DNA of 64,000 bases, taken from contig JBBIJY010000010.1 in assembly GCA_037445735.1 (NCBI GenBank), positions 3,664-67,663 of the forward strand. Direction: 5' to 3'. Under the pieces are notes generated by a model. That model was not told where the DNA came from. It was given only the letters and a program-made list of their open reading frames with translations, and made no database searches. Both the position numbers and the translations under genes were made by a program. This document shows, in pieces, positions 1,494 through 49,395 of the stretch (position 1 is its first letter; the number at the start of each line of letters is the position of its first letter). This DNA comes from Armatimonadota bacterium. Lineage in GTDB: Bacteria; Armatimonadota; Fimbriimonadia; Fimbriimonadales; GBS-DC.

Positions 1494-2405
1494 ATGATAA
1501 CTTTCTCGAACGGTGAGCGGGTGGAGTTTCTCACGGGCAGCGGCGCGCTGGGCTTCGACGGGCGCGGCTGGTGGTGGGAGTATCCCCTGCGCTGGGTGGG
1601 GCTGCTGAACCCGCGTGAGTTTGCTATTGTGGTCAAAACGCTCACGCTGCACCCGCGCCGGGGCAACCTGCGCGGGTACGCGCCCTGGCGCTGCGTGCGC
1701 CTCATTCCGGGCGGCACAGTGAACGCCGTCGGGCTGACCAACCCCGGCATCGAGTGGTGGCTCCGCGCCTGCTACCCCCGCATGCAACGGATGGGCTTGC
1801 AGACCATCGTGTCGGTGCATGCCGCAACGGTGGCGGAAGCGCAGCAGATGGCGCAGCTGCTAACTCCCCTGCGACTGACAGCGATTGAGCTGAACGCCTC
1901 CTGCCCGAATGTGCCGCACGATTCTGCCGTTGCACATGGGGTGGCAGTTGCCCGCGCGCTGCGCGAGGCGGGACATCCGCTGATTGTGAAGGTCGGCTAT
2001 GATCAGCCCTATGTGGAGCTGGCGCAGGCGCTGGAGGGCATCGCGGAGGCAATCCATGCGATTAACGCGGTGCCCTGGGGTGTGGTGTTTCCACAGCGCC
2101 GGTCGCCACTAACGCATCTGGGTGGCGGGGCGGTGTCAGGCGAGCCGATACGCCCCTTCGTGCGCGAGGCGGTCGCCCGATTGAGCCACGCCACCCGCCT
2201 GCCGATTATCGCAGGGGGCGGAATCTATACGCTGAACGATCTGGAGGAGCTGTGGGCGCTGGGCGCCCGCGCCTTCAGCATCGGCACGCTGTTTCTGCGA
2301 GTGCCGTGGCAACCCAATCGCCTCGTGCGCCAGTGGCGACAGTCGCACCCGTACGCCGAACCCGCTCAGGAGTCTGCCCCTACTCGCCCGCACTGCCAAA
2401 GTTGA
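1494..2405 (+). CDS. Dihydroorotate dehydrogenase family TIM-barrel protein (PyrD-like)
   Basis: Motifs NAVGLTNPG, ELNASCPN and PIIAGGGI match DHODH class-1 signatures; start taken at MITFSNG inside the tracked ORF 1461..2405. Confidence 0.55.
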   Translation: MITFSNGERVEFLTGSGALGFDGRGWWWEYPLRWVGLLNPREFAIVVKTLTLHPRRGNLRGYAPWRCVRLIPGGTVNAVGLTNPGIEWWLRACYPRMQRMGLQTIVSVHAATVAEAQQMAQLLTPLRLTAIELNASCPNVPHDSAVAHGVAVARALREAGHPLIVKVGYDQPYVELAQALEGIAEAIHAINAVPWGVVFPQRRSPLTHLGGGAVSGEPIRPFVREAVARLSHATRLPIIAGGGIYTLNDLEELWALGARAFSIGTLFLRVPWQPNRLVRQWRQSHPYAEPAQESAPTRPHCQS

Positions 2406-4089
2406 ACAGCACAATCAGCAGGTCGGCGTCGTCCACCGCACCGTCACCGTTCACATCTTCAGGCAAGCCATTGCCCGACTGCCCGAAAGCGAACAGCACC
2501 ATCAGCAAATCGGCGTCGTCGATCTGATTGTCGCGGTTCGCGTCGCCGTTGATGAGCGTCCAGTTGACGCTGGTATTGGGCGCAAGGGTGAGCGTTTGCC
2601 GTCGGGAGAGCCAGCCCGGCACCCGCACGCGCACCGACGCCGTGCCGCTCAGCGCGGTGGCGACGGTGTATTGACCGTTTGCTTGCAGCACGGTCGTGGT
2701 GGCGTCGGTCTGCTGACCGCTCTGAAAACTGAACTGCGCTGTCTTGCCTGCTGGATCGGGCAGGTAATCGCTCAGAATGATTCGCCCTGTTAAAAACGGC
2801 GGCGCCTGCACGCGCTGAATACCGACCGCAGGAGTGTTATCGCTGCCCTGATTGACCGTGCTGATGGCGTACAGGCTGGCGTCGGGCGCGTCGATCAGCA
2901 GTTCGGGCTGCTCGTCTGCTTGGCTCAACCCACCCAGCGCGAGCGCGCCCATCAGCGAGCCATCGGGGCGCCACCATTGCAGGAACGGCTTCCAGCGCTC
3001 GGTGTCGGTCAGCTGGGCAATCAGCAGGGTGCAGGCGTTCGCGCTCGTGTGGACGCCCGCGACGGCGCGATAGACGCCACTGAGCGATTGCGAACCCATC
3101 AGGTTGCCGTCCGCATCGCCCAGCACAATAGCTGTCCATCGCGCGCTGGACGATTCGGCGTTCCCGGCAATCAACCAGCCCCTGCCCAGCGCGGTCAGCA
3201 CATCAGGGATCGAGTCGCCCGGCGCGTTGCTGATGGGCAGTTGCCAGAGCAATGTGCCGTCGGCTGCCAGGTGCATCAGCAGAAGTCGTGCCTGCTGTGC
3301 CGATGACTCCCAGACTGTGCCCAGCAGGTAGATCGTGCCATCGCTTGCCTGCGCCGAGCGCTCGGCATAGAACGGCAACAACAATTCCTGTTGAACTGTG
3401 CCCGTGTCGCTGAGCCACTGCAGCAGCGTTTGATCCCAGCGCTGCAGGATGCCATCAGGATCGGGCACACGCGCCATCAGCAGGCTTATGGTCGCGTTCA
3501 GGCGCAGGATGCCCAGCGGGGCACGGCTCCATGTCAGCGTCTGCGCCGGCGCGAAAAGATTCTGGGCGAGCTGCGTGCCGTTGCCATCAAACAGCAGCCG
3601 CGCATAGCCCAGCCAGCCCGTGCCATAGGCATGAAGCACCTCCACCCCGTTCGGGCGAACAATCAGCCGACGAACCACATCGTACTCGCCCAGATTGACC
3701 ATCGCTGACCAGAGCATCGTGCCGTCCGCTGACCAGCGCTGCACATAAGCCAGCGAGTCTCTGTCGGCGCGGGTGATGGCTAAGTAGAAGGAGCTATCGG
3801 ATGCAGCGGCAATCGCTTCGGCGTTATAGGATTGCCCCGATTCGCTGATGGTGCGCGCCCAGAGCAGGTCGCCCTGCGGGGAGTATTTCAGCACAGCGAC
3901 GCCATAATGCCCCGCGTCCATAATGTAGCGGGCGGCAATCAGCAGATTGCCCTGCGAGTCGACGGTGGCGACCTGCGGCAGGCAACCCCGCGAGCCGGAG
4001 GGCACAAACAGTCGGCTCCAGAGAACGCTCTGCGCGAACCCACCCTGCACGAGCAATATCAGACAGACCAGCCCTGTGAGCGTGCGCAT
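2380..4089 (-). CDS. Secreted repeat (beta-propeller-like) protein with C-terminal tandem dockerin-like Ca-binding repeats
   Basis: Signal peptide MRTLTGLVCLILLVQGGFAQ. The C-terminus GDANRDNQIDDADLLMVLFAFG ... DVNGDGAVDDADLLIVLFNFG matches the dockerin type I duplicated D-x-N-x-D-x-x-(I/V)-D-x-x-D-L pattern. Confidence 0.6.
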   Translation of the reverse strand: MRTLTGLVCLILLVQGGFAQSVLWSRLFVPSGSRGCLPQVATVDSQGNLLIAARYIMDAGHYGVAVLKYSPQGDLLWARTISESGQSYNAEAIAAASDSSFYLAITRADRDSLAYVQRWSADGTMLWSAMVNLGEYDVVRRLIVRPNGVEVLHAYGTGWLGYARLLFDGNGTQLAQNLFAPAQTLTWSRAPLGILRLNATISLLMARVPDPDGILQRWDQTLLQWLSDTGTVQQELLLPFYAERSAQASDGTIYLLGTVWESSAQQARLLLMHLAADGTLLWQLPISNAPGDSIPDVLTALGRGWLIAGNAESSSARWTAIVLGDADGNLMGSQSLSGVYRAVAGVHTSANACTLLIAQLTDTERWKPFLQWWRPDGSLMGALALGGLSQADEQPELLIDAPDASLYAISTVNQGSDNTPAVGIQRVQAPPFLTGRIILSDYLPDPAGKTAQFSFQSGQQTDATTTVLQANGQYTVATALSGTASVRVRVPGWLSRRQTLTLAPNTSVNWTLINGDANRDNQIDDADLLMVLFAFGQSGNGLPEDVNGDGAVDDADLLIVLFNFGSAGE

Positions 4090-4098
4090 ACCATGCTA

Positions 4099-5124
4099 TT
4101 ATAGCCCAAGTTGGGTGGCAACCGCCCAGTAGCCCTCCGATTGCAGGATGCTGGCGATTCGCTCCGCATCGCTTTGCGCGGCGCACAATGCCCCCTGCAC
4201 CGCGCCGCTGCCACACAGCAGCACGCGAAGTGCCCCCAGCGACTCCATACGCGCCCGCAATCGCAGGAGAGGTTCCAGCGCGTCCAGCACCACCGCCTCG
4301 AAATCGTTATGCAGGAAAGGCACGAGCTGTTCGGGCGTCTGAATCGCGCCCTGCTGGATGGCTCGCGCTAAGGTTTCTGTTGGGGCGAATTGGCGCGTCC
4401 GTCTTAACGACTCAAGGCGACTGGATAGCTGCGTGTACGCCCATGCGGTGGAGACGCCCACATCGGGCGGTCGAGCCAGCACCCACTCGAAGGGCGGCAG
4501 CGCGGGCAACGGTTGCACCTGCTCGCCCCGCCCACCCACACGCGCGCACGCCCCACTCAAAAAGAAGGGCACATCGGAGCCAAGCTGCCGGGCGATTGCC
4601 AGCAACTCCATTTCAGCCCCCTCACCCGTACCCTCTCCCCCACTGGGGGAGAGGGCTGAATGAACTCCCTCTCCCCGCTGGGGAGAGGGTTGGGGTGAGG
4701 GGTTATTCGCATGCGCAAGATGGGAAGCCCCCTCACCCGTACCCTCTCCCCCACTGGGGGAGAGGGTTTTATGGGACCTTCGCTCCATAAAATAGCGCAC
4801 GATTGCGGCGGCGTCGCTACTGCCTCCGCCGAGACCTCCCTGCGGCGGAATGCGCTTGATCAGGCGCACATGCCAGCCTGATCGCGCCGTCGCGCCCACC
4901 TGCTCCAGCGCCCGCCAGACCAGATTGCGCTCATCGGTCGGCACGGCGAAGCCCTCCACCTCCAGCGCAATCGGCGGCTGGCGATTCGGGATGGGCGTCA
5001 GAATCAGCGTATCGTGCAGGCTCAGCGTGTGCATCACGCTCGCGATGGTGTGGTAGCCATCCTCGCGACGCTCCAGCACCTCCAGTGTGAGGTTGATCTT
5101 GGCAGGCGCGTGCAGCTCAATCAT
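4099..5124 (-). CDS. ispE: 4-diphosphocytidyl-2-C-methyl-D-erythritol kinase, carrying a ~55 aa in-frame insertion derived from palindromic repeats
   Basis: N-terminus [24 protein letters not shown] is diagnostic of IspE (GHMP kinase). The 341 aa length exceeds the typical ~285 aa because of the segment [13 protein letters not shown]...[24 protein letters not shown] encoded by the 4617-4766 repeats. Confidence 0.85.
4617..4766. repeat. Three adjacent copies of a GC-rich nested palindromic element (CCCTCACCC-gta-CCCTCTCCCCC-act-GGGGGAGAGGG; CCCTCTCCCC-gct-GGGGAGAGGG-tt-GGGGTGAGGG) inside ispE
   Basis: Copies at 4617-4655 and 4728-4766 are identical; 4667-4702 is the complementary half. Related copies occur at 31008, 35353, 37275 and 48706. 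Confidence 0.85.
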
Positions 5125-30863: not shown

Positions 30864-31007
30864 CCCCTGCCCTTCCTGAACGAATAAGATATTAGCATGG
30901 TTCCTTCCTCCTTCTGCCCTCTGCGAAGCGGGGCAGGGTTTATATCCGCTTACGGGTGGGTTGAGCCCCTTCAGCCGTACCTTCCGCCTTAGCGGGGCGA
31001 ATGAAAA

Positions 31008-31050
31008 CCCTCTCCCCCACAGCGTGGGAGAGAGGGCACGAGGGTGAGGG
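31008..31050. repeat. Intergenic copy of the GC-rich palindromic element (CCCTCTCCCCC-acagcg-TGGGAGAGAGGG-cac-GAGGGTGAGGG)
   Basis: Lies between the ECF sigma start (30863) and the flotillin stop (31062); same arms as the intragenic copies. Confidence 0.8.
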
Positions 31051-33785: not shown

Positions 33786-33878
33786 CGCCCATCACCACTG
33801 TTTATTATAGCATGCGCTGGCGGGAAGTTCCCTGAAAAAGCGGGGGCAGGCGTGGAAAAATGCCAGTGGTGGCGTGCG

Positions 33879-35297
33879 ATGAGACAGGTGGATGTGCTGG
33901 TGATTGGTAGCGGACCTGCAGGTCAGCGCGCGGCGATTCAGGCAGCGAAGCTGGGGCGCACCGTCGCGGTGGTGGAGCGCCCCACGATGCTGGGCGGAGT
34001 GTGCATCAACACGGGAACCATTCCCAGCAAAGCGTTGCGCGAAGCGATCCTGCAACTGACAGGCAAGCGCGGTGGGTTCTATCTCGAGCCGCATCCCGCC
34101 GACACGCTCAGCTTCACGATTCAGGAGCTGGTCTCGCGCTGTCAGCCCATTATTCGCGCCGAGCAAGCCGTGATGCGGGAGCATTTTCAGAGGAACGGTA
34201 TCCAGATGCTGTGGGGAACCGCCTCTTTTGAGGATGAGTTCACGGTGCGGATCGCCCATCGCACTGGCAGCGAGCTGGTACAGGCACAGGCAATCATTCT
34301 GGCGGTGGGGACTGTGCCCGCGCGACCGCCCCATATCCCTTTCGATGACCGCCAGATTGTGGACAGCGATTCCTTTTTACGGATGCCCCATCTGCCCCGC
34401 AGCCTTATTATTGTGGGCGGTGGCGTGATTGGCACGGAGTACGCCTGCCTGATGAACGCGCTCGGTGTACGGGTGATGCTGGTGGAGGCACGCCCGCGCC
34501 TGCTCGACTTCGTGGACGCCGAAATCAGTGAGGCGCTGCAATACCATATGCGCTCGGCAGACATCACCCTCCGTCTGGGCGAGCAGGTCAGCGAGGTGCA
34601 GTTGCTGCCGAACGGGCTGGTGGAGGCGACCTTAGCCAGTGGCAAGCACCTGCGCGCGGAGGCACTGCTGTATTGCATCGGGCGACAGGGCGCAACCGCC
34701 GAACTGGGGCTGGAACGCATCGGGCTGCAGCCCGACGAGCGCGGACGCCTGCGCGTGAACGAGCGGTTCCAGACCGAAATCCCGCACATCTATGCAGTGG
34801 GCGATGTGATCGGCTTTCCCGCGCTCGCAAGCACTTCGATGGAGCAGGGGCGAGTCGCCGCCTGCTACGCCTGCGGCGAGCCAGTGGAGCCAAGCTGCCC
34901 CGTGTTCCCCTACGGAATCTACACTATCCCCGAGATTGCGATGGTGGGCAAAACAGAAGCGCAACTGACCACCGAAGGTGTGCCCTACGAGGTGGGTGTC
35001 GCCCATTATCGCGAGGTCTCACGCGGACAACTGCTCGGCGATACCAGCGGCATGCTCAAAATGCTCATCCACGAGGAGACACGCGAAATTCTGGGCGTGC
35101 ATGCAATTGGTACAGGCGCGACCGAACTGATTCACATCGGACAGATGGCAATCGCTCTTCACACCACCGTGGACTATTTCCTGCAGGCGATTTTTAACTA
35201 TCCGACACTTGCCGAGTGCTACAAGGTCGCCGCACTGAACGGCAGCAACAAACTGCGCTTGCTCCGCCAGCATATCACCCTGCCCCACGCTGCATGA
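33879..35297 (+). CDS. sthA: Soluble pyridine nucleotide transhydrogenase (Si-specific) / FAD-dependent disulfide oxidoreductase family
   Basis: VLVIGSGPAGQRAAIQAAKLGRTVAVVER...GGVCINTGTIPSKALREAI and C-terminal FNYPTLAECYKVAALNGSNKL align closely with E. coli SthA. The tracked ORF 32781..35297 carries a spurious 5' extension. Confidence 0.9.
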   Translation: MRQVDVLVIGSGPAGQRAAIQAAKLGRTVAVVERPTMLGGVCINTGTIPSKALREAILQLTGKRGGFYLEPHPADTLSFTIQELVSRCQPIIRAEQAVMREHFQRNGIQMLWGTASFEDEFTVRIAHRTGSELVQAQAIILAVGTVPARPPHIPFDDRQIVDSDSFLRMPHLPRSLIIVGGGVIGTEYACLMNALGVRVMLVEARPRLLDFVDAEISEALQYHMRSADITLRLGEQVSEVQLLPNGLVEATLASGKHLRAEALLYCIGRQGATAELGLERIGLQPDERGRLRVNERFQTEIPHIYAVGDVIGFPALASTSMEQGRVAACYACGEPVEPSCPVFPYGIYTIPEIAMVGKTEAQLTTEGVPYEVGVAHYREVSRGQLLGDTSGMLKMLIHEETREILGVHAIGTGATELIHIGQMAIALHTTVDYFLQAIFNYPTLAECYKVAALNGSNKLRLLRQHITLPHAA

Positions 35298-35352
35298 ATA
35301 AGCAACCCGGTCGCAGCAGATGAAATGGATCGGACCGTCCAGAACGAATAGA

Positions 35353-35382
35353 CCCCCTCTCCCACAGCATCGGGAGAGGGGG
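35353..35382. repeat. Intergenic palindromic element copy (CCCCCTCTCCC-acagcatc-GGGAGAGGGGG), likely a bidirectional terminator between convergent sthA and the PEP-CTERM gene
   Basis: Perfect 11-bp inverted repeat with 8-nt loop located between the sthA stop (35297) and the stop of the minus-strand gene (35402). Confidence 0.6.
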
Positions 35383-36157: not shown

Positions 36158-36472
36158 ATGTATGCGATTGTTCAAACGGGCGGCAAGCAGTATCGCGCGG
36201 AGCCAGGCGCCATCATCAGTGTGGAAAAAATCGAGGCGGAAGCGGGCAGCCAGATCGAGCTGACGGAGGTGCTGCTGATTCGCACCGACGAGGGTCTGCG
36301 CGTGGGCGCGCCTTACATCGAGGGCGCGAAGGTGATTGCCGAAGTGGTACGACAGGGCAAGGGTCCCAAGATTATCGGGTTCAAATACAAGCCGAAGAAG
36401 AACGAGCGTCGGCGCTGGGGTCATCGCCAGCAGCTGACCTGGCTGCGCATCAAGGAGATTGTCGCAGGCTAA
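36158..36472 (+). CDS. rplU: 50S ribosomal protein L21
   Basis: [26 protein letters not shown]...[22 protein letters not shown] matches bL21; GGAGG RBS upstream. No rpmA follows. Tracked ORF 36017..36472 has a spurious 5' extension. Confidence 0.9.
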
Positions 36473-37653
36473 AGCCGGGTTGCCAGCAAGCCTGCGGCGC
36501 AGCCGGCGAGGAAGTAGGCGCGTTCCGCATCGGCGTCGCGCCCCATCGTGGTCAGGATCGCCCCCTGATCGAGGAGCCATTCCAGCACGGCATCGGCATC
36601 GATAATGTGCAGGGTGTGGCGATCTGGTATCGCCGCGCCCTGCAAAGCGTTCAGCACCCGCTCCATCTGGTCAGCGGGCAGTTGCGGCACCGCGACCGTG
36701 CAGGGCAGGAGCGCGACCTGGCTCAAAACGGTCAGTGAGTGGTGGCTCACGCCCTGATGGCGTGCGCGGGTGTCGCCGAAGCTGATGCGCAGCGCTGCGA
36801 TGGGCTGACCGCCAAGTGTGCCGATGGCGTTCAGCGCCAGCCCCTGATCGAGACCCGAAAAGCCCCAGCGCGTACCCGTGCCCAGATTGCCCGGACCCTG
36901 ACCGACCACCGCGAAATCGGCGTTCAGCGCGTGGCGGGCGAGCAATAACGCGCTATAGAGGTTCACCGCCTCCAGCTCGCCCCCGAACGCCTGCCCGACT
37001 GTGATGGTTCCTGCCAGCCAGCCGCGCTCCGTGAGCCAGCTCACCACCTCGCTGAAGCCGAGCGCGAGCGCCGCCGAATCGGTCATGATGTAGACGATTC
37101 GGGCGTCGGGGCGCGCGTAGCGAATCGCGCCCACCACAGGAATCAGATGGCTGTGCAGCAGGATCGCGACGGTGGGCATCCCCTTCAGTGTGCCTGTGAG
37201 CGCGTCGGGATAGCGATTCTCGGCGGCGGGCGCGGCGAACTGCAACGGCGTGTAGCGCAACCGCATCAGCAGCTCCCCCTCACCCGTACCCTCTCCCTCG
37301 CTGGGGGAGAGGGGCAGATGGCTCCCTTTCCCCTCTGGGGAGAGGGTTGGGGTGAGGGGTTGCATCGGCACGACGGCAGGCTCTGCCCCCTCACCCATGC
37401 CCTCTCCCCCGCACGCGGCGGAGAGGGTGGATAGCGCGGCAATCACAAAATCGTAGCCGCCAGTGCCCAGCTTCAGCGCGGTCGCCGTGGTGTTGAGCAG
37501 CACAGTATCGCCCGCCTGCAGGCGTCCATTAAGCGTGATGTAGTTGAGCGCGTTGCGCCGCTCCGCATCGGTGCGCACCTGCAGGTACTGCACGCCCGAC
37601 CGCTCGCGCACCACCTGCTCCACAATCCCGACCGCTTTGTAAAGCACGCTCAC
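36469..37653 (-). CDS. Conserved hypothetical protein (possibly DUF3866-like) carrying an in-frame palindromic-repeat insertion
   Basis: N-terminal [34 protein letters not shown] block. The internal segment [46 protein letters not shown] is encoded by repeat copies at 37275-37429. Family assignment is from memory and unverified. Confidence 0.45.
37275..37429. repeat. Three copies/halves of the GC-rich palindromic element inside the 36469..37653 CDS
   Basis: CCCCCTCACCCGTACCCTCTCCCTCGCTGGGGGAGAGGGG / CCCCTCTGGGGAGAGGGTTGGGGTGAGGGG / CCCCCTCACCCATGCCCTCTCCCCCGCACGCGGCGGAGAGGGTGG. Confidence 0.85.
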
Positions 37654-39506
37654 GGCTGCACGCCTCGCTGGTGGAGGTAGACCATCAGGCAGGCGATGTC
37701 GGCGGGGCGCACGCCCGGGATACGCGCCGCCTGACCTATCGTGCGGGGGCGTACCCGTGCGAGCTTCTCGCGCGACTCGCGCGAAATCGCCGTCAACGAT
37801 TCGTAATCGATATCGTCTGGGATGAACCAGTCTTCCATCCTGCGCATCTTCTCGACCTGTTGCTGCTGCTTGCGCAGGTAGATGTCGTATTTGACGCGGA
37901 TCTCCACCGCCTCGGCGATTTCGGGCGGTAGGGGCGTCTCTGGCGGGAAGAGACGGGTCAGCATGGCGTGTGAGACTTCGGGGCGGCGCAGGTAGTCGCG
38001 CGCGGTGATGCGCTCATTCACGGGCGTGCCGCCCAGCGCGACAAGCTGCGGGTTGTGCCGCCCGCTGATTTCGATGCGCTCCAGCCGTTCCAGCTCCGCC
38101 TGAATCTGCGCCTGTCGCGCCTGAAAGCGTCGCCAGCGTTCGTCGTCCACCAGCCCGACCTCGCGTCCGATGGGTGTGAGACGCTCGTCGGCATTATCGT
38201 GGCGCAGATGCAGCCGATGCTCGGCGCGACCCGTCAGCATCCGATAGGGGTCTTCCACGCCTTTGGTCACCAGATCGTCAATCAGCACGCCAATATAGCT
38301 GCTGCTGCGTTCCAGCACAAGCGGCTCACGGCGCTTGACATACAGCGCGGCGTTGATGCCCGCGATCAGCCCCTGCGCAGCAGCTTCCTCATAGCCCGAT
38401 GTGCCGTTGATCTGCCCCGCAAGGAACAGCCCCCGCACCCGCCTGGTCATCAGCGTCGGATGAAGCTGGTCAGGGTACACCATGTCGTACTCCACCGCAT
38501 AGCCAGGGCGTAGCATCACCACCTCTTCCAGCCCTGGCAGGGTGCGCAGAAACGCCAGCTGCACCTCCTCGGGCAGGCTGGTGGACATCCCCTGCACATA
38601 GAGGTCGTCCCGGTCCCAGTACTCCTGCTCCAGGAACACGGGATGGCGCTCCTTGTCGGGGAATCGCACGATTTTGTCTTCGATGCTGGGGCAGTAGCGC
38701 GGTCCGATGCCGACGATATGCCCGCCGTACATCGCGGAGCGGTGCAGGTTCTCGCGGATGATGGCGTGCGTGCGCTCGTTGGTGAAGGTTTGCCAGCAGG
38801 GCAGCAGCGGGCGCGGCGGCTGCAGGCGGTCGTGCCGATACGAAAAGGGCGGGCACGGCTCCGACGGCACTTCCGTCAGGCGGGAGAGATCGACGCTCTT
38901 TTTATCGATGCGGGGCGTGGTGCCGGTCTTGAAGCGCCCGATTCGGAAGCCGAGCTGCTGGAGAGCGGCGGTCAGCCCTGTGGCGGGCGGGTCGCCGAAC
39001 CGCGCCGCCTGAATCTTGCGCTCCCCGATATGGCATAGCCCATTCAGAAAGGTGCCGGTGGTCAACACGACGACATGCGCAGTGATCTCGCCGTCGGGCG
39101 TGCGAACCCCATAGCAGGTGTCGTCCTTCACCAGCAAGCCGTCGACGCGGGCTTCCCTCAGCGTCAGGTTCGGCTGCTGCTGGAGTGTGGCGAGCATCTG
39201 CGCGGGATAGAGCGCTTTGTCGGCATGGGCGCGCAGGGTGCGTACGGCAGGTCCCTTGCCCGTGCCCACAAAGCGAATATGGGTCAGCGTTAAATCGGTG
39301 TTGATGCCCATCTGCCCGCCGAGCGCGTCGATTTCGCGCACCAGATGCCCTTTGGCAGGACCGCCGATGGAGCAGTTGCAGGGCATATGTGCCGTGCGCT
39401 CGATGTTGAGCGTGAGGGCGAGCGTGCGGCAGCCGAGCCGTGCCGCTGCCAGCGCCGCCTCACAACCCGCATGACCCGTCCCCACCACGATCACATCGTA
39501 ATCCAT
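37650..39506 (-). CDS. mnmG: tRNA uridine 5-carboxymethylaminomethyl modification enzyme MnmG (GidA)
   Basis: [28 protein letters not shown]-binding N-terminus plus conserved [11 protein letters not shown] and [20 protein letters not shown]. Start taken at M176 of the tracked ORF. Confidence 0.9.
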
Positions 39507-39524
39507 CCATCGAGAGCATACCCC

Positions 39525-40229
39525 ATGCCGCCTGCGGGTATGCTTGCAGATGTGCAGAAGCGGTTGCTGGGACGGACGAATCGGCTCCTGTTCCCTTTGT
39601 GGGTGCGCGGGGCATTGCCAGCCGACGAGCCTGACGAGGCGCAGGTCGCTGCCTTTTTTGAGCGGTTGCGGTCGCTCGGCGTGGAAGTGCTGGACATCAC
39701 GCCCTCGCACGGTTTCTGGGGGCAGGCTTTGCGCGTGCATCAGCCCGCGTTGCAGGTGGCGGTCATCGCACCGCCACATCTGCTGGCGTACGCGCCCGAC
39801 AGCCAGCGCGCCGCGCGTGCCGTGCAGGCGCATCTGATCGAGATTCTCTGCTCCATCGGGCGCGATTGCTGCGACTACTACTTCCTGAATCTGGCGTATG
39901 CGCCGACCGAGGCGCAGTTGAGCGGTGCGCTGGAGGCGCTGGAGCTGGCGCGTCAGGAGGCGCAGGTAGGCGCGATTGGGCTGGCAGCGTATGGCGAGCC
40001 GTTGCGCATACTCGCACTCTGGCGCACGCACGACGCTTTCGAGGTCGCCCTGCTACCAAACCGCCATGAGGCCCTGCAGGTGCTGCTGCCCGAGGCGCGA
40101 GCGCGGCGCGTCGGCGCGATTGTCGAAATCGCCGAACCGCTCTGGAACGCGACACCAAGCCAGTGGGACAGCACGCTCGCCCAGCTGAACGCCGACGCCC
40201 TCCTGCTCACAGGTACAATTCTGCCATGA
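39525..40229 (+). CDS. Hypothetical protein with aldo/keto-reductase-like TIM-barrel C-terminal segment
   Basis: Codon third positions are GC-biased (coding-like). [26 protein letters not shown] resembles the AKR signature (kvraiGvSnf). The 4-nt stop/start overlap with the downstream SIS gene indicates an operon. Start uncertain. Confidence 0.4.
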
Positions 40230-48534: not shown

Positions 48535-49395
48535 TCAGCGGCTCTCCAGCAGGAGAGCGGTCTGGGCGAGCGCGTAGAAAGCAGCCATCTCGGTGCGCAG
48601 GACACGATCCCCCAGTGAGACGGGGATACAGGCATATTCGGAGATCATCGGTTCCCGCTCGTGGGGGGTGAAACCGCCCTCCGGACCGATGATGAGCGTA
48701 AGCGCCCTCACCCCCAGCCCCTCTCCCCCGCTGGGGGAGAGGGGGGAAGCACCCCCTTCTCCCGAAGCTTCGGGAGAAGGGGGCTGGGGGGATGAGGGCA
48801 CTAACAACTGGCTCAAAACCGCACTCAACAGCGGAACTCCCTCATGTTCGTCCAGCAGCAGGCGCGGATGCGGCAGGCGCTCCATCGCCGAGAACCAGTC
48901 GCCCACAATCTGGATGGCAGGGTAGCGCGCGCGACAGGCGACCTCCGCCTCTTCGCGGGCGATTGACTGCCAGCGTCGCTCCCGTGTTGCTCGCTTATCC
49001 GCATCGAGCGTCACCAGCGAGCGCTCGGCAGGTGCAAATAAAATCTGCACCGCTCCGCCTGCCGTGCAGAGGCGCACCACCTGCTCCGCCTTCTCCGCGC
49101 GCACCATCGCCTGCAAAATATACACTTCTATCGGCAGCTCGGTTGCCAGCTGCTCACGCTCCACGACGGTGAATCGCACTGGATGGGCTGCCGATTGCAA
49201 CCGCACATGGTACGCCCAGCCCGTGTTGTCCAGCAGGCAGATGATGTCGCCCTCGCGCAGACGCAGCACATGGCGCACCTGATGCGCAATATCAGGCGGC
49301 AACACGCCCGTCTCCAGCGTTTCAGGCGGCACAAAGAAGCGCGGTAGCCCCCGCGCGCTCAGCCCTTCGGGCGACGAAACACGGCGGCGACCCAT
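48535..49395 (-). CDS. rsmE: 16S rRNA (uracil1498-N3)-methyltransferase RsmE with in-frame palindromic-repeat insertion
   Basis: LPRFFVPPETL N-terminus and C-terminal SPOUT knot LIIGPEGGFTPHEREPMISEYACIPVSLGDRVLRTEMAAFYAL. The extra segment [31 protein letters not shown] is encoded by the repeats at 48706-48798. Confidence 0.8.
   Translation of the reverse strand: MGRRRVSSPEGLSARGLPRFFVPPETLETGVLPPDIAHQVRHVLRLREGDIICLLDNTGWAYHVRLQSAAHPVRFTVVEREQLATELPIEVYILQAMVRAEKAEQVVRLCTAGGAVQILFAPAERSLVTLDADKRATRERRWQSIAREEAEVACRARYPAIQIVGDWFSAMERLPHPRLLLDEHEGVPLLSAVLSQLLVPSSPQPPSPEASGEGGASPLSPSGGEGLGVRALTLIIGPEGGFTPHEREPMISEYACIPVSLGDRVLRTEMAAFYALAQTALLLESR
48706..48798. repeat. Two nested palindromic element copies inside rsmE
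   Basis: CCCTCACCCCCAGCCCCTCTCCCCCGCTGGGGGAGAGGGGGG and CCCCCTTCTCCCGAAGCTTCGGGAGAAGGGGGCTGGGGGGATGAGGG. Confidence 0.85.

What the first reader, a model, noticed from the sequence alone, without database searches (positions are those of the whole stretch)
37275..37429. Second in-frame insertion of the same palindromic element family in a conserved hypothetical gene (36469..37653)
Copies CCCCCTCACCCGTACCCTCTCCCTCGCTGGGGGAGAGGGG, its complement half, and CCCCCTCACCCATGCCCTCTCCCCC... are translated as [46 protein letters not shown]. The same repeat is read in a different frame/orientation than in ispE yet still gives a Gly/Glu/Pro/Ser-rich loop. This suggests the element is tolerated in several frames.
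Basis: seen in the sequence. Interest (0 to 1): 0.55.

Follow-up and report, generated by a model that had tools for sequence, protein, structure and literature searches.

The report
Triplex-motif repeat translated inside DUF3866 gene
A 155-base composite of three copies of a known bacterial repeat (BoxC/TMECO "triplex motif") sits in frame inside a conserved gene and is translated as a floppy linker, and following the family outwards shows that these repeats flank DUF559 nuclease genes, a possible answer to how they spread.

Summary
Window 37275-37429 holds three ~38-nt units (tail CCCTCACCC + hairpin CCCTCTCCC/GGGAGAGGG) in the order direct, inverted, direct. It lies in frame in the DUF3866 gene 36469-37653(-).

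The units fit the published BoxC/PIT/TMECO triplex-motif pattern: 5 strict matches in the window, 0 expected.

None of 118 other DUF3866 homologues has the segment. The 95%-identical sister genome keeps one unit and lacks exactly 111 nt (37 codons). An AlphaFold model puts the insert in a disordered inter-domain linker.

ispE carries the same three-unit composite and shows the same 111-nt difference. rsmE carries an inverted pair that is shared with a 66%-identical outgroup and was deleted in frame (69 nt) in the sister genome.

Orientation and the frame of the outer units are the same as in ispE; only the middle unit is read in another frame.

New lead: DUF559 (YcjD-like nuclease) genes picked only by protein motif are flanked by these units in 47 of 80 metagenome loci, about 125-fold enriched near the gene, with consistent inverted orientation. 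The window composite has the same unit order minus the gene. It is therefore probably a gene-less, MITE-like derivative.

Known repeat kind; new context (in frame, Armatimonadota).

The parts
36469..37653 (-). Host gene, DUF3866 family protein (394 aa). It is intact and overlaps the 3' end of mnmG/gidA by 4 nt.
   Evidence: Pfam PF12982, E 4.7e-104, profile positions 2-318 of 318. 6215 homologues were found and all invariant columns are kept. The AlphaFold model is confident outside the insert.
37275..37429 (.). Composite repeat element A-B'-A'. It is translated on the minus strand as residues ~76-127 ([52 protein letters not shown]).
   Evidence: Residues 79-132 have pLDDT below 50 and no secondary structure.
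37275..37313 (+). Unit A, in the order C-tail then hairpin: CCCCCTCACCC GTA CCCTCTCCC TCGCT GGGGGAGAGGG.
   Evidence: The reverse strand matches the published TMECO pattern at 37277-37313. Unit finder result.
37314..37323 (.). Spacer 1. It is 1 nt shorter than in the ispE copy, which shifts the frame of the middle unit.
   Evidence: Alignment A1.
37324..37360 (+). Unit B', inverted, in the order hairpin then G-tail: CCCTTTCCC CTCTG GGGAGAGGG TTG GGGTGAGGGG. It has one stem mismatch.
   Evidence: Strict TMECO pattern match at 37324-37358(+). It is the palindrome partner of unit A (I1).
37361..37385 (.). Spacer 2 (25 nt). This is the position where DUF559 genes sit in the full-length relatives of the element.
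   Evidence: Architecture 'C>H H>G [DUF559] C>H' seen in metagenome loci. This assignment is an inference.
37386..37428 (+). Unit A', a direct copy of A with a degenerate hairpin: CCCTCTCCCCC GCACGC GGCGGAGAGGG.
   Evidence: 89% identical to A over 27 nt with a spacing of 111 nt (D1, I4). Unit finder result.
37298..37408 (.). The 111-nt (37-codon) segment that is present here and absent from the sister genome. Its placement is ambiguous within the direct repeat.
   Evidence: Alignment A3 against L001 (GCA_037444405.1) and the independent Logan contig L002.
4617..4766 (.). Sibling composite A-B'-A, in frame in ispE (4099-5124, minus strand).
   Evidence: The sister genome has one unit there and is also 111 nt shorter.
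48703..48800 (.). Inverted pair of the same family, in frame in rsmE (48535-49395, minus strand).
31008..31050 (+). Intergenic single unit, downstream of the Band_7/SPFH-family gene. Synteny with the sister genome ends here.

Best explanation
WHAT IT IS (shown). The segment is a 155-nt composite of three units of the BoxC / PIT / TMECO 'intrastrand triplex motif' repeat family. Each unit is a 9-11-bp G/C hairpin (CCCTCTCCC/GGGAGAGGG) with a third block (GGGTGAGGG, or CCCTCACCC on the other strand). The composite lies inside the poorly conserved linker between the N-terminal and C-terminal domains of a DUF3866 protein. It is translated as a Gly/Glu/Pro/Ser-rich disordered loop.

WHY IT IS TOLERATED (shown plus inferred). 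A unit has a stop codon in only one of six frames, the TGA in GGGTGAGGG. A composite therefore stays open in two of three frames on each strand. Insertions or indels that land in a surface linker and preserve the frame are the ones that survive selection.

DYNAMICS (shown for rsmE, inferred for this gene). The unit number is unstable. The sister genome has one unit where this genome has three, differing by exactly 111 nt between the two direct units, both here and in ispE. In rsmE the sister has lost both hairpins (69 nt), while an outgroup still has them. The most likely event is in-frame deletion by slippage or recombination between repeat units in the sister lineage.

ORIGIN (inferred). The unit order here is C-tail>hairpin, hairpin>G-tail, 25-nt spacer, C-tail>hairpin. 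This is the order found around DUF559 (YcjD-like, Vsr-fold nuclease) genes, where the units act like terminal inverted repeats. The composite is therefore most likely a gene-less, MITE-like derivative of a TM-DUF559-TM element. The DUF559 nuclease would be the candidate mobilising enzyme, supplied in trans or lost.
For: - Family identity. The units match the pattern published by Holder et al. 2015 (PMC4666352): 5 matches in the window against 0 expected. In nearly all of the 153 matches the unqueried second hairpin arm followed (85 exact, most of the others within one mismatch by inspection).
- Insertion. The segment is absent from 118 other homologues. The sister genome lacks 111 nt.
- Linker location. 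Residues 79-132 have pLDDT below 50 in a model with mean pLDDT 80.5.
- Frames..
- Parallel loci. ispE shows the same 111-nt difference. In rsmE the window and the outgroup L126 share the inverted pair, and the sister keeps only the outer tails. This matches Holder's report that palindromic pairs suffer small deletions that keep a hairpin.
- DUF559 link, forward direction. 5 of 120 TM-selected loci have DUF559 between units.
- DUF559 link, reciprocal direction. 47 of 80 DUF559 loci chosen only by protein motif have units within 300 nt: 86 units in 45 kb near the gene against 2 in 131 kb further away. The nearest upstream unit is hairpin>G-tail in 29 of 31 loci. The nearest downstream unit is C-tail>hairpin in 32 of 37.
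- E. coli. The DUF559 gene ycjD has TMECO no. 9 lying 168 nt downstream, and its stop codon sits in a hairpin loop.
- Same unit order. Four metagenome loci show 'C>H H>G [DUF559] C>H'.
Against: - No DUF559 gene is present in the 64-kb window or in 35 kb of the sister genome. Whether this genome has one is unknown.
- No target-site duplication or clean empty site was found for this insertion. The 66-68%-identical orthologues are unalignable in the linker, and their linkers are as long as the sister's one-unit version. The original event may therefore have replaced sequence rather than simply added it.
- The polarity at this locus (three units to one, or one to three) cannot be read from the two sequences alone. 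The sister unit is a formal recombinant either way.
- Nothing shows that DUF559 cuts or moves these units. Holder et al. found no mobility genes near TMECO and no stable triplex in vivo.
- The 80 DUF559 loci were the ones most similar to YcjD-like queries that were themselves TM-associated, so the association may hold only for that subfamily.
Confidence: 0.68

Rival explanations
1. The core reading is the same (an in-frame BoxC/TMECO composite), but DUF559 is not the mobiliser. Instead, the DUF559 gene is itself a selfish homing-type gene that preferentially lands between two inverted TM units. The units pre-exist and spread by some other, unknown route such as replication slippage, template switching or gene conversion.
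For: The association data show adjacency only, not causation. 34 of 80 DUF559 loci have no unit within 300 nt. E. coli K-12 has 23 units and, as far as I recall, a single DUF559 gene (the single-gene count was not tested here). Orientation exceptions exist (L036 direct, L114 tails outward).
Against: The DUF559 reading frame runs into the downstream unit, with its stop codon in the hairpin loop. That suggests gene and repeat evolve as one piece. Orientation is very consistent (29/31 and 32/37). Inverted pairs with a short spacer look like internal-deletion derivatives.
Confidence: 0.2
2. The three-unit state arose here by expansion. The common ancestor had one unit in DUF3866 and in ispE. The window lineage added the 111-nt B'-A module to both, either by a module that targets existing units or by gene conversion between the two loci.
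For: In ispE the two outer units are 100% identical over 39 nt, while the sister's single unit differs from them at ~6 of 39 positions. This is more than the ~5% background and could mean the window copies are young. The period is the same, 111 nt, at both loci.
Against: At rsmE the outgroup shares the two-unit state with the window, and the sister shows a deletion. The sister is therefore the lineage that loses units. Deletion between 27-40-nt direct repeats is mechanistically simple. The spacers of the two composites differ by many substitutions and compensating indels, which argues against recent copying between them.
Confidence: 0.25
3. The insert is kept because it is useful. It could act as a longer flexible linker for DUF3866, or as a DNA/RNA structure inside the coding region that pauses replication, transcription or translation between the two domains.
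For: In rsmE the repeat pair is more conserved at the nucleotide level (79/96 = 82%) than the rest of the gene (69%) between lineages that are 66% identical in protein. The segment folds strongly.
Against: The sister genome functions with one unit here and none in rsmE. The A' hairpin is decaying. The higher conservation can be explained by gene conversion among genomic copies. Hoyne and Maher found no promoter or terminator activity for PIT elements (cited).
Confidence: 0.08
4. The difference between three units and one unit, or the insert itself, is an assembly artefact of a repeat in metagenome-assembled genomes.
For: Both genomes are MAG-type assemblies. Direct repeats 111 nt apart can be collapsed by assemblers.
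Against: A and A' share only 11-nt and 10-nt exact runs here, too short to confuse an assembler. The one-unit state appears in two separate assemblies, the NCBI MAG and Logan contigs that run straight through it. The flanks are collinear and the frame is preserved at all three loci.
Confidence: 0.04
5. It is a native low-complexity Gly/Glu/Pro linker that evolved in place and only resembles the repeat by chance or by composition.
For: The DUF3866 linker varies in sequence among homologues.
Against: The segment is 85% identical at the nucleotide level to the ispE copy, across both orientations and the spacers. It matches a 27-base specified pattern that has zero chance expectation. It is absent from all other homologues.
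Confidence: 0.01

Closest known systems
BoxC / PIT / TMECO intrastrand triplex-motif repeats (Bachellier and co-workers, 1990s; Hoyne & Maher 2000; Holder et al. 2015, PMC4666352)
   Same: The three-block unit is the same (CCCTCNCCC, N3-6, GGGNGAGGG, N3, GGGNGAGGG). Copies are dispersed and numerous. Inverted pairs are frequent. Small indels occur between close relatives, and these often leave a hairpin.
   Different: In E. coli K-12 all 23 copies are intergenic, and the pattern was counted in 262 proteobacterial genomes. Here 3 of 5 loci in 64 kb are translated, in-frame parts of housekeeping genes. The units form a three-unit composite, the stems are 11 bp, and the host is an Armatimonadota lineage. 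No link to DUF559 was reported.
Rickettsia palindromic elements (RPE; Ogata et al. 2000 and 2002, as summarised in PMC10969869)
   Same: RPEs are ~150-bp palindromic repeats inserted in frame into unrelated housekeeping genes. They are translated as extra surface peptide without destroying the protein.
   Different: The sequence is unrelated (G/C-rich triplex motif here). The composite here is built from ~38-nt units whose number varies. The family is pan-bacterial rather than confined to one genus. RPEs have no known associated nuclease gene.
REP/BIME elements and their RAYT (IS200/IS605-like) transposases
   Same: Both are short G/C-rich palindromic units, often in inverted pairs. A single-copy gene flanked by the units is the proposed mobiliser. 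This is the analogy for TM units and DUF559.
   Different: The units here have a third block and lack the REP GTAG head. The flanked gene has a Vsr-like PD-(D/E)XK fold (DUF559), not an HUH Y1 transposase. REPs are extragenic by definition.
MITEs with intragenic, in-frame copies (ERIC, Nezha, BOX and others; review PMC10969869)
   Same: They are gene-less derivatives bounded by inverted repeats, and are occasionally read through as part of a host ORF.
   Different: No target-site duplication was seen here. The parent element is only inferred.
Inteins and free-standing homing endonuclease genes
   Same: In three metG genes the whole TM-DUF559-TM module sits in frame inside an essential gene, the way an intein-encoded endonuclease does.
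   Different: No splicing domain is present. The nuclease domain would remain part of the mature MetRS. The window copy carries no nuclease at all.

Membership tests
BoxC / PIT / TMECO triplex-motif repeats | Sequence pattern CCCTCNCCC N3-6 GGGNGAGGG N3 GGGNGAGGG, with one stem mismatch allowed | tested here: met
   B' (37324-37358) matches with one mismatch. A matches with 11-nt stems (37277-37313). A' matches a version relaxed to one mismatch per block. Pattern definition quoted.
BoxC / PIT / TMECO triplex-motif repeats | Many dispersed copies per genome, some as inverted pairs | tested here: met
   The unit finder detects 8 units at 4 loci in 64 kb (ispE, DUF3866, rsmE, intergenic 31008-31050). 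A fifth locus, 35353-35382, is a hairpin only, and rsmE carries a second, degenerate unit. Inverted pairs are present in ispE, DUF3866 and rsmE.
BoxC / PIT / TMECO triplex-motif repeats | Intergenic location (described for E. coli K-12) | tested here: not met
   Three of five loci lie inside Pfam-confirmed genes and are in frame. This is a described property of the E. coli copies rather than part of the motif definition.
BoxC / PIT / TMECO triplex-motif repeats | Local indel instability between close relatives | tested here: met
   Indels of 111, 111 and 69 nt at the three genic loci against the sister genome. Synteny also breaks at the intergenic unit.
BoxC / PIT / TMECO triplex-motif repeats | [quoted passage not shown] | not testable with these tools
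   Only the sequence requirement (mirror G-blocks plus a C-block) is met. Hairpin folding is supported.
Rickettsia palindromic elements | Sequence homology to one of the RPE families | not tested
   No RPE sequences were compared. The resemblance is functional only: ~150 bp, palindromic, in frame.
Rickettsia palindromic elements | In-frame insertion in unrelated housekeeping ORFs with the protein kept intact | tested here: met
   DUF3866, ispE and rsmE here, and PBP1A in the sister genome.
REP/BIME with RAYT | Units flank or accompany an IS200/IS605-like Y1 (RAYT) gene | not tested
   The window ORFs were not scanned for RAYT. The gene found between units elsewhere is DUF559, not RAYT.
MITE (non-autonomous derivative of a gene-carrying element) | Terminal inverted repeats shared with a longer element that carries a gene | tested here: met
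   The same units in the same order flank DUF559 genes. Four loci show the window's exact unit order with the gene inserted.
MITE (non-autonomous derivative of a gene-carrying element) | Target-site duplication and demonstrable empty sites | tested here: inconclusive
   No duplication is visible at the ends. The orthologue linkers are too diverged to define an empty site. The E. coli ycjD locus gave a variable-region boundary, not a clean empty site.
DUF3866 (PF12982), host gene | Full-length match to the family profile | tested here: met
   E 4.7e-104, profile positions 2-318 of 318.

The most novel reading that the evidence does not exclude
BoxC/TMECO triplex-motif units are the terminal inverted repeats of a pan-bacterial selfish element whose only gene is a DUF559 (YcjD, Vsr-fold) nuclease.

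The ends of this element are almost free of stop codons. This lets both the full element (seen in frame in metG) and its gene-less derivatives (DUF3866, ispE and rsmE here) persist inside essential genes as translated linkers. It would be an intein-like hiding strategy without splicing.

If correct, this gives a mechanism and a testable enzyme for a repeat family that has been known since the 1990s with no known function or means of spread.
Probability: 0.35. Interest if true: 0.8.

Novelty: new variant of a known kind. Interest (0 to 1): 0.6.

Why it matters
BoxC/PIT/TMECO repeats have been catalogued for about 30 years as intergenic curiosities. They have no known function, no known means of spread, and a reported link to local genome instability.

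This window shows them in a different role. In an Armatimonadota lineage they are repeatedly built into housekeeping proteins as translated linkers. Their unit number changes in whole codons between sister genomes, which makes them a ready source of protein-length variation, comparable to the palindromic elements of Rickettsia.

Following the family outwards gave a strong association that I did not find reported in the searchable literature. DUF559 nuclease genes, including E. coli ycjD, sit between two inverted units. This turns 'how do these repeats move?' into an experiment that can be done in E. coli.

There is also a practical consequence for annotation. Gly/Glu/Pro/Ser-rich 'GEGxGEG / PLSP' stretches in predicted proteins of many phyla are likely repeat-derived rather than native sequence.

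Tried and rejected
- Rfam. The gathering-threshold scan of the window found only a tRNA. An E-value scan of 37150-37550 gave only generic hairpin (miRNA) matches far below threshold. This is not a described RNA family.
- NCBIfam. No match for the host protein.
- Peptide census. Searching the 59-residue insert against 1.84 billion representatives gave only 3 weak hits. Low complexity makes this route insensitive, although one hit (P0243) gave the DUF559 lead.
- Source contig. Looking up the window's own contig by exact protein found nothing on record.
- Genic versus intergenic census. An ORF-based census on the 120 foreign loci gave 35% of motif sites inside long open frames against 76% of random sites. 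It shows depletion from genes, but it is noisy in G+C-rich DNA, so I use it only qualitatively.
- Polarity of the 111-nt difference. It cannot be decided from DUF3866 alone, because the sister unit is a formal recombinant under both models. I relied on the rsmE outgroup instead.
- PBP1A comparison. The sister's PBP1A insertion could not be compared with the window, because synteny ends before that gene.
- E. coli empty site. About 38% of E. coli genomes diverge right at the unit next to ycjD, but because of a different island (TetR/RND genes in O157:H7), not a clean excision.
- Coordinate error. One Pfam call failed because I gave reverse-strand coordinates wrongly. It was repeated with plain sequences.
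- Terminator or promoter role. Considered and rejected for this copy, because it lies inside an ORF with no T-run.
Full report
**1. The observation**

Three related units are present:
- A at 37275-37313: CCCCCTCACCC-GTA-CCCTCTCCC-loop-GGGGGAGAGGG.
- B', an inverted copy, at 37322-37360.
- A', a more degenerate direct copy, at 37386-37428.

A and A' are 111 nt apart start to start. A and B' form a 41-nt imperfect palindrome.

The motif words are far over-represented in the window. GGGGAGAGGG occurs 12 times against 0.14 expected. CCCCCTCACCC with up to 1 mismatch occurs 12 times against 1.7 expected.

The quoted peptide is the -1 frame translation. It lies inside ORF 36469-37653(-), which is a full-length DUF3866 protein (Pfam E 4.7e-104).

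The single strand folds better than all 200 shuffles (z = -3.7).

**2. Relation to the ispE copy**

The ispE copy (4617-4766, inside ORF 4099-5124 on the minus strand) aligns with this one across all three units and both spacers at 85% column identity. Unit order and orientation are the same.

Both host genes are on the minus strand, so the orientation relative to the gene is also the same.

The outer units are read in the same frame in both genes: [12 protein letters not shown] in ispE; [12 protein letters not shown] and CGGEGMGEG here. Only the middle unit is read differently: [12 protein letters not shown] in ispE and [12 protein letters not shown] here. The cause is that spacer 1 is 1 nt shorter here and spacer 2 is a net 1 nt longer.

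A single unit has a stop codon in one of six frames, the TGA of GGGTGAGGG. This composite is open in four of six frames.

**3. It is an insertion**

Of the 120 best DUF3866 homologues, only the window protein and its nearest relative P0002 contain any GEGxG-type peptide.

In a 19-sequence alignment the segment falls in a linker that varies in sequence. The 66-68%-identical Armatimonadota/HR15-type orthologues have unrelated sequence there.

P0002 comes from GCA_037444405.1 (locus L001) and from an independent Logan contig (L002). The flanks are ~95% identical. The sister lacks exactly 111 nt, or 37 codons. It retains one unit, CCCCATCGCCCCC-GCGTGC-GGGGGAGAGGG-TAC-GGGTGAGGGGG.

An AlphaFold2 model built on that alignment is confident overall (mean pLDDT 80.5). 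Residues 79-132 are below 50 and have no secondary structure. The insert therefore extends a disordered linker between an N-terminal domain (residues 1-78) and the large C-terminal domain.

**4. What the unit is**

Rfam has nothing for it.

The loci include:
- Pseudomonas, Xanthomonas, Enterobacteriaceae, Rhizobiales and Burkholderiales;
- cyanobacteria and Chloroflexota;
- Planctomycetota, Verrucomicrobiota, Acidobacteriota and Armatimonadota.

By my own estimate, eighteen specified bases would give tens of chance hits in 596 Gb. However, in almost every one of the 153 matches the second hairpin arm follows after a short loop. It is GGGAGAGGG exactly in 85 cases and, by inspection, within one mismatch in most of the others. 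That arm was not part of the query.

A literature search on the sequence words led to Holder et al. 2015 (PMC4666352). The unit is the 'TMECO' intrastrand triplex motif, earlier called BoxC and PIT. Its pattern is CCCTCNCCC N3-6 GGGNGAGGG N3 GGGNGAGGG. What that paper reports:
- It was counted 3610 times in 262 proteobacterial genomes.
- It forms a triplex in vitro but was not detectably triplex in vivo.
- All 23 E. coli K-12 copies are intergenic.
- Five K-12 loci are inverted pairs.
- It is associated with small indels between strains, and these often leave a hairpin.
- No mobility gene was found nearby.

The window has 5 strict matches to that pattern against 0 in shuffles.

**5. Other copies and their dynamics**

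The window has five loci of the family:
- ispE, in frame.
- DUF3866, in frame.
- rsmE, in frame at 48703-48800 inside ORF 48535-49395 on the minus strand; Pfam Methyltrans_RNA.
- An intergenic unit at 31008-31050.
- A bare hairpin at 35353-35382.

The sister genome's ispE again has one unit and again is exactly 111 nt shorter.

In rsmE the window carries an inverted pair. A 66%-identical outgroup (P0246, locus L126) carries the same pair at the same place. The sister keeps only the outer tails, GCCCTCATCCC-AACAGA-GGGTGAGGGC, which is a 69-nt in-frame deletion.

This fixes the polarity at rsmE: presence is ancestral and the sister lost it. It makes deletion between the direct units the likelier explanation for the two 111-nt differences. 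Expansion in the window lineage is not excluded.

The rsmE pair is 82% identical at the nucleotide level (79 of 96) between window and outgroup. The rest of the gene is 69% identical. From those numbers I calculate z of about 2.8. This points to sequence-level constraint or to gene conversion among copies.

Further in-frame examples:
- An inverted pair in the sister's PBP1A gene (L001 2308-2392).
- Variable numbers of TM-like units at the same loops of ispE and rsmE in other Armatimonadota.

**6. In-frame copies elsewhere**

Among the 120 foreign loci, motif sites are depleted from long open frames (35%, against 76% for random sites). They are not absent from them.

Pfam confirms real genes on both sides of in-frame units in a type I restriction HsdR, a methionine aminopeptidase and a PrmC-like methyltransferase. 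An IleRS-like ORF (L046) was judged by eye only.

**7. The DUF559 link**

One of the three hits of the peptide search, P0243, is a DUF559 protein with units on both sides.

Two betaproteobacterial metG genes (L004, L040) contain, in frame between the anticodon-binding and tRNA_bind domains, a DUF559 domain bracketed by units (Pfam E 1e-32 and 3e-30). A third metG of this kind is L199.

A small DUF559 profile found the domain in 5 of the 120 TM-selected loci. In each case it lies between two units 25-163 nt away. None was found in the window or the sister loci.

In E. coli K-12, ycjD encodes a DUF559 protein; to my knowledge it is the only one in the genome, which I did not test. Holder's TMECO no. 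9 lies 168 nt downstream of it. A duplicated remnant of the ycjD 3' end lies in between. The ycjD stop codon sits in the loop of a second, degenerate hairpin, giving the C-terminus ...RRSPSP*.

As the reciprocal test I fetched 80 metagenome loci chosen only by a DUF559 protein motif. Results:
- 47 loci have a unit within 300 nt, and 22 have one on both sides.
- There are 86 units in 45 kb near the gene against 2 in 131 kb further out, about 125-fold enrichment.
- The nearest upstream unit is hairpin>G-tail in 29 of 31 loci.
- The nearest downstream unit is C-tail>hairpin in 32 of 37.

The units therefore behave as terminal inverted repeats of a DUF559 gene, and the ORF often ends inside the downstream unit.

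Four loci have the order C>H, H>G, [DUF559], C>H. This is exactly the order of the window composites, with the gene in place of the 25-nt spacer 2.

YcjD is known only as a predicted Vsr-like PD-(D/E)XK nuclease (PMC1189080). I found no paper linking DUF559 to BoxC. That is absence of evidence in an incomplete library.

**8. Interpretation**

Shown:
- The segment is a real, translated, in-frame composite of a known repeat family.
- It sits in a disordered linker.
- It is absent from other homologues.
- It is length-polymorphic in whole codons against a sister genome.

Inferred:
- The sister lineage lost 111 nt by repeat-mediated deletion. This rests on the rsmE polarity and on the instability reported by Holder et al.
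- The composite is a gene-less derivative of a TM-DUF559-TM element. This rests on shared architecture only.

Unknown:
- Whether this genome encodes a DUF559.
- How the units reach new sites.
- Whether the insert has any effect on DUF3866, a protein that itself has no known function.

**9. Verdict**

This is a known kind of repeat in a new setting: in frame, composite, in Armatimonadota. It works like the Rickettsia palindromic elements. The finding as stated is moderately interesting. The DUF559 association raises its value because it makes the long-open question of BoxC mobility testable.

Noticed in passing
L128-L207 (metagenome DUF559 loci); L004, L036, L040, L112, L114; L127 2205-2761 (E. 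coli K-12 ycjD): DUF559 (YcjD-like, Vsr-fold nuclease) genes are flanked by BoxC/TMECO units in inverted orientation. 47 of 80 loci have a unit within 300 nt, about 125-fold enriched near the gene. The upstream unit is hairpin>G-tail in 29 of 31 loci and the downstream unit is C-tail>hairpin in 32 of 37. I did not find this reported in the searchable literature.
   Followed up: yes
L004 1307-1794; L040 2111-2649; L199: Three metG (MetRS) genes carry a complete TM-DUF559-TM module in frame between the anticodon-binding and C-terminal tRNA-binding domains. A nuclease domain is thus embedded in an essential enzyme without any intein.
   Followed up: partly
window 48703-48800 (rsmE, ORF 48535-49395 minus strand); L125, L126: A third in-frame copy, an inverted pair, lies in rsmE. 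It is shared with a 66%-identical outgroup and removed by a 69-nt in-frame deletion in the sister genome, which keeps only the outer tails. The pair is 82% identical at the nucleotide level against 69% for the rest of the gene.
   Followed up: yes
window 30991-31050; L001 14113-14154: Collinearity between the window and the sister contig (92-95% identity over ~10 kb) ends inside the intergenic triplex-motif unit downstream of the Band_7/SPFH-family gene. Different genes follow in the two genomes.
   Followed up: partly
window 33836-35372: A 1.5-kb segment present only in the window carries a pyridine-nucleotide-disulfide oxidoreductase (SthA/Lpd-like) ORF. It is replaced by ~40 nt in the sister genome. 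Its right edge abuts the hairpin CCCCCTCTCCC...GGGAGAGGGGG at 35353-35382.
   Followed up: no
L001 2308-2392 (gene 2003-4279, PBP1A-type): The sister genome has an in-frame inverted pair of the same units inside a transglycosylase/transpeptidase gene. The orthologous region is not in the window.
   Followed up: partly
P0122, P0123, P0149, P0185, P0190, P0202 (ispE); P0254, P0255 (rsmE): Other Armatimonadota/Fimbriimonadales ispE and rsmE proteins carry different numbers of repeat-derived GEG/PLSP-type segments. These occur at the same loops and at further loops, for example 3 versus 2 units in P0122 versus P0123.
   Followed up: partly
L097, L122, L035, L046: In-frame units also occur in genes of other phyla. 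HsdR and methionine aminopeptidase are confirmed by Pfam on both sides. PrmC has partial Pfam support. An IleRS-like ORF was judged by eye only.
   Followed up: partly
L127 2160-2210 versus L208 3900-3960 (E. coli K-12 versus O157:H7): About 38% of complete E. coli genomes stop matching K-12 just before the unit next to ycjD. In O157:H7 FRIK2455 a TetR/RND-efflux island follows fabI instead.
   Followed up: partly
window 37650-40031: The listed 793-aa ORF for mnmG/gidA is about 175 codons longer at its 5' end than the 618-aa gene called in the sister genome, so it is probably a spurious upstream extension. Its stop overlaps the DUF3866 start by 4 nt, which suggests co-transcription.
   Followed up: no
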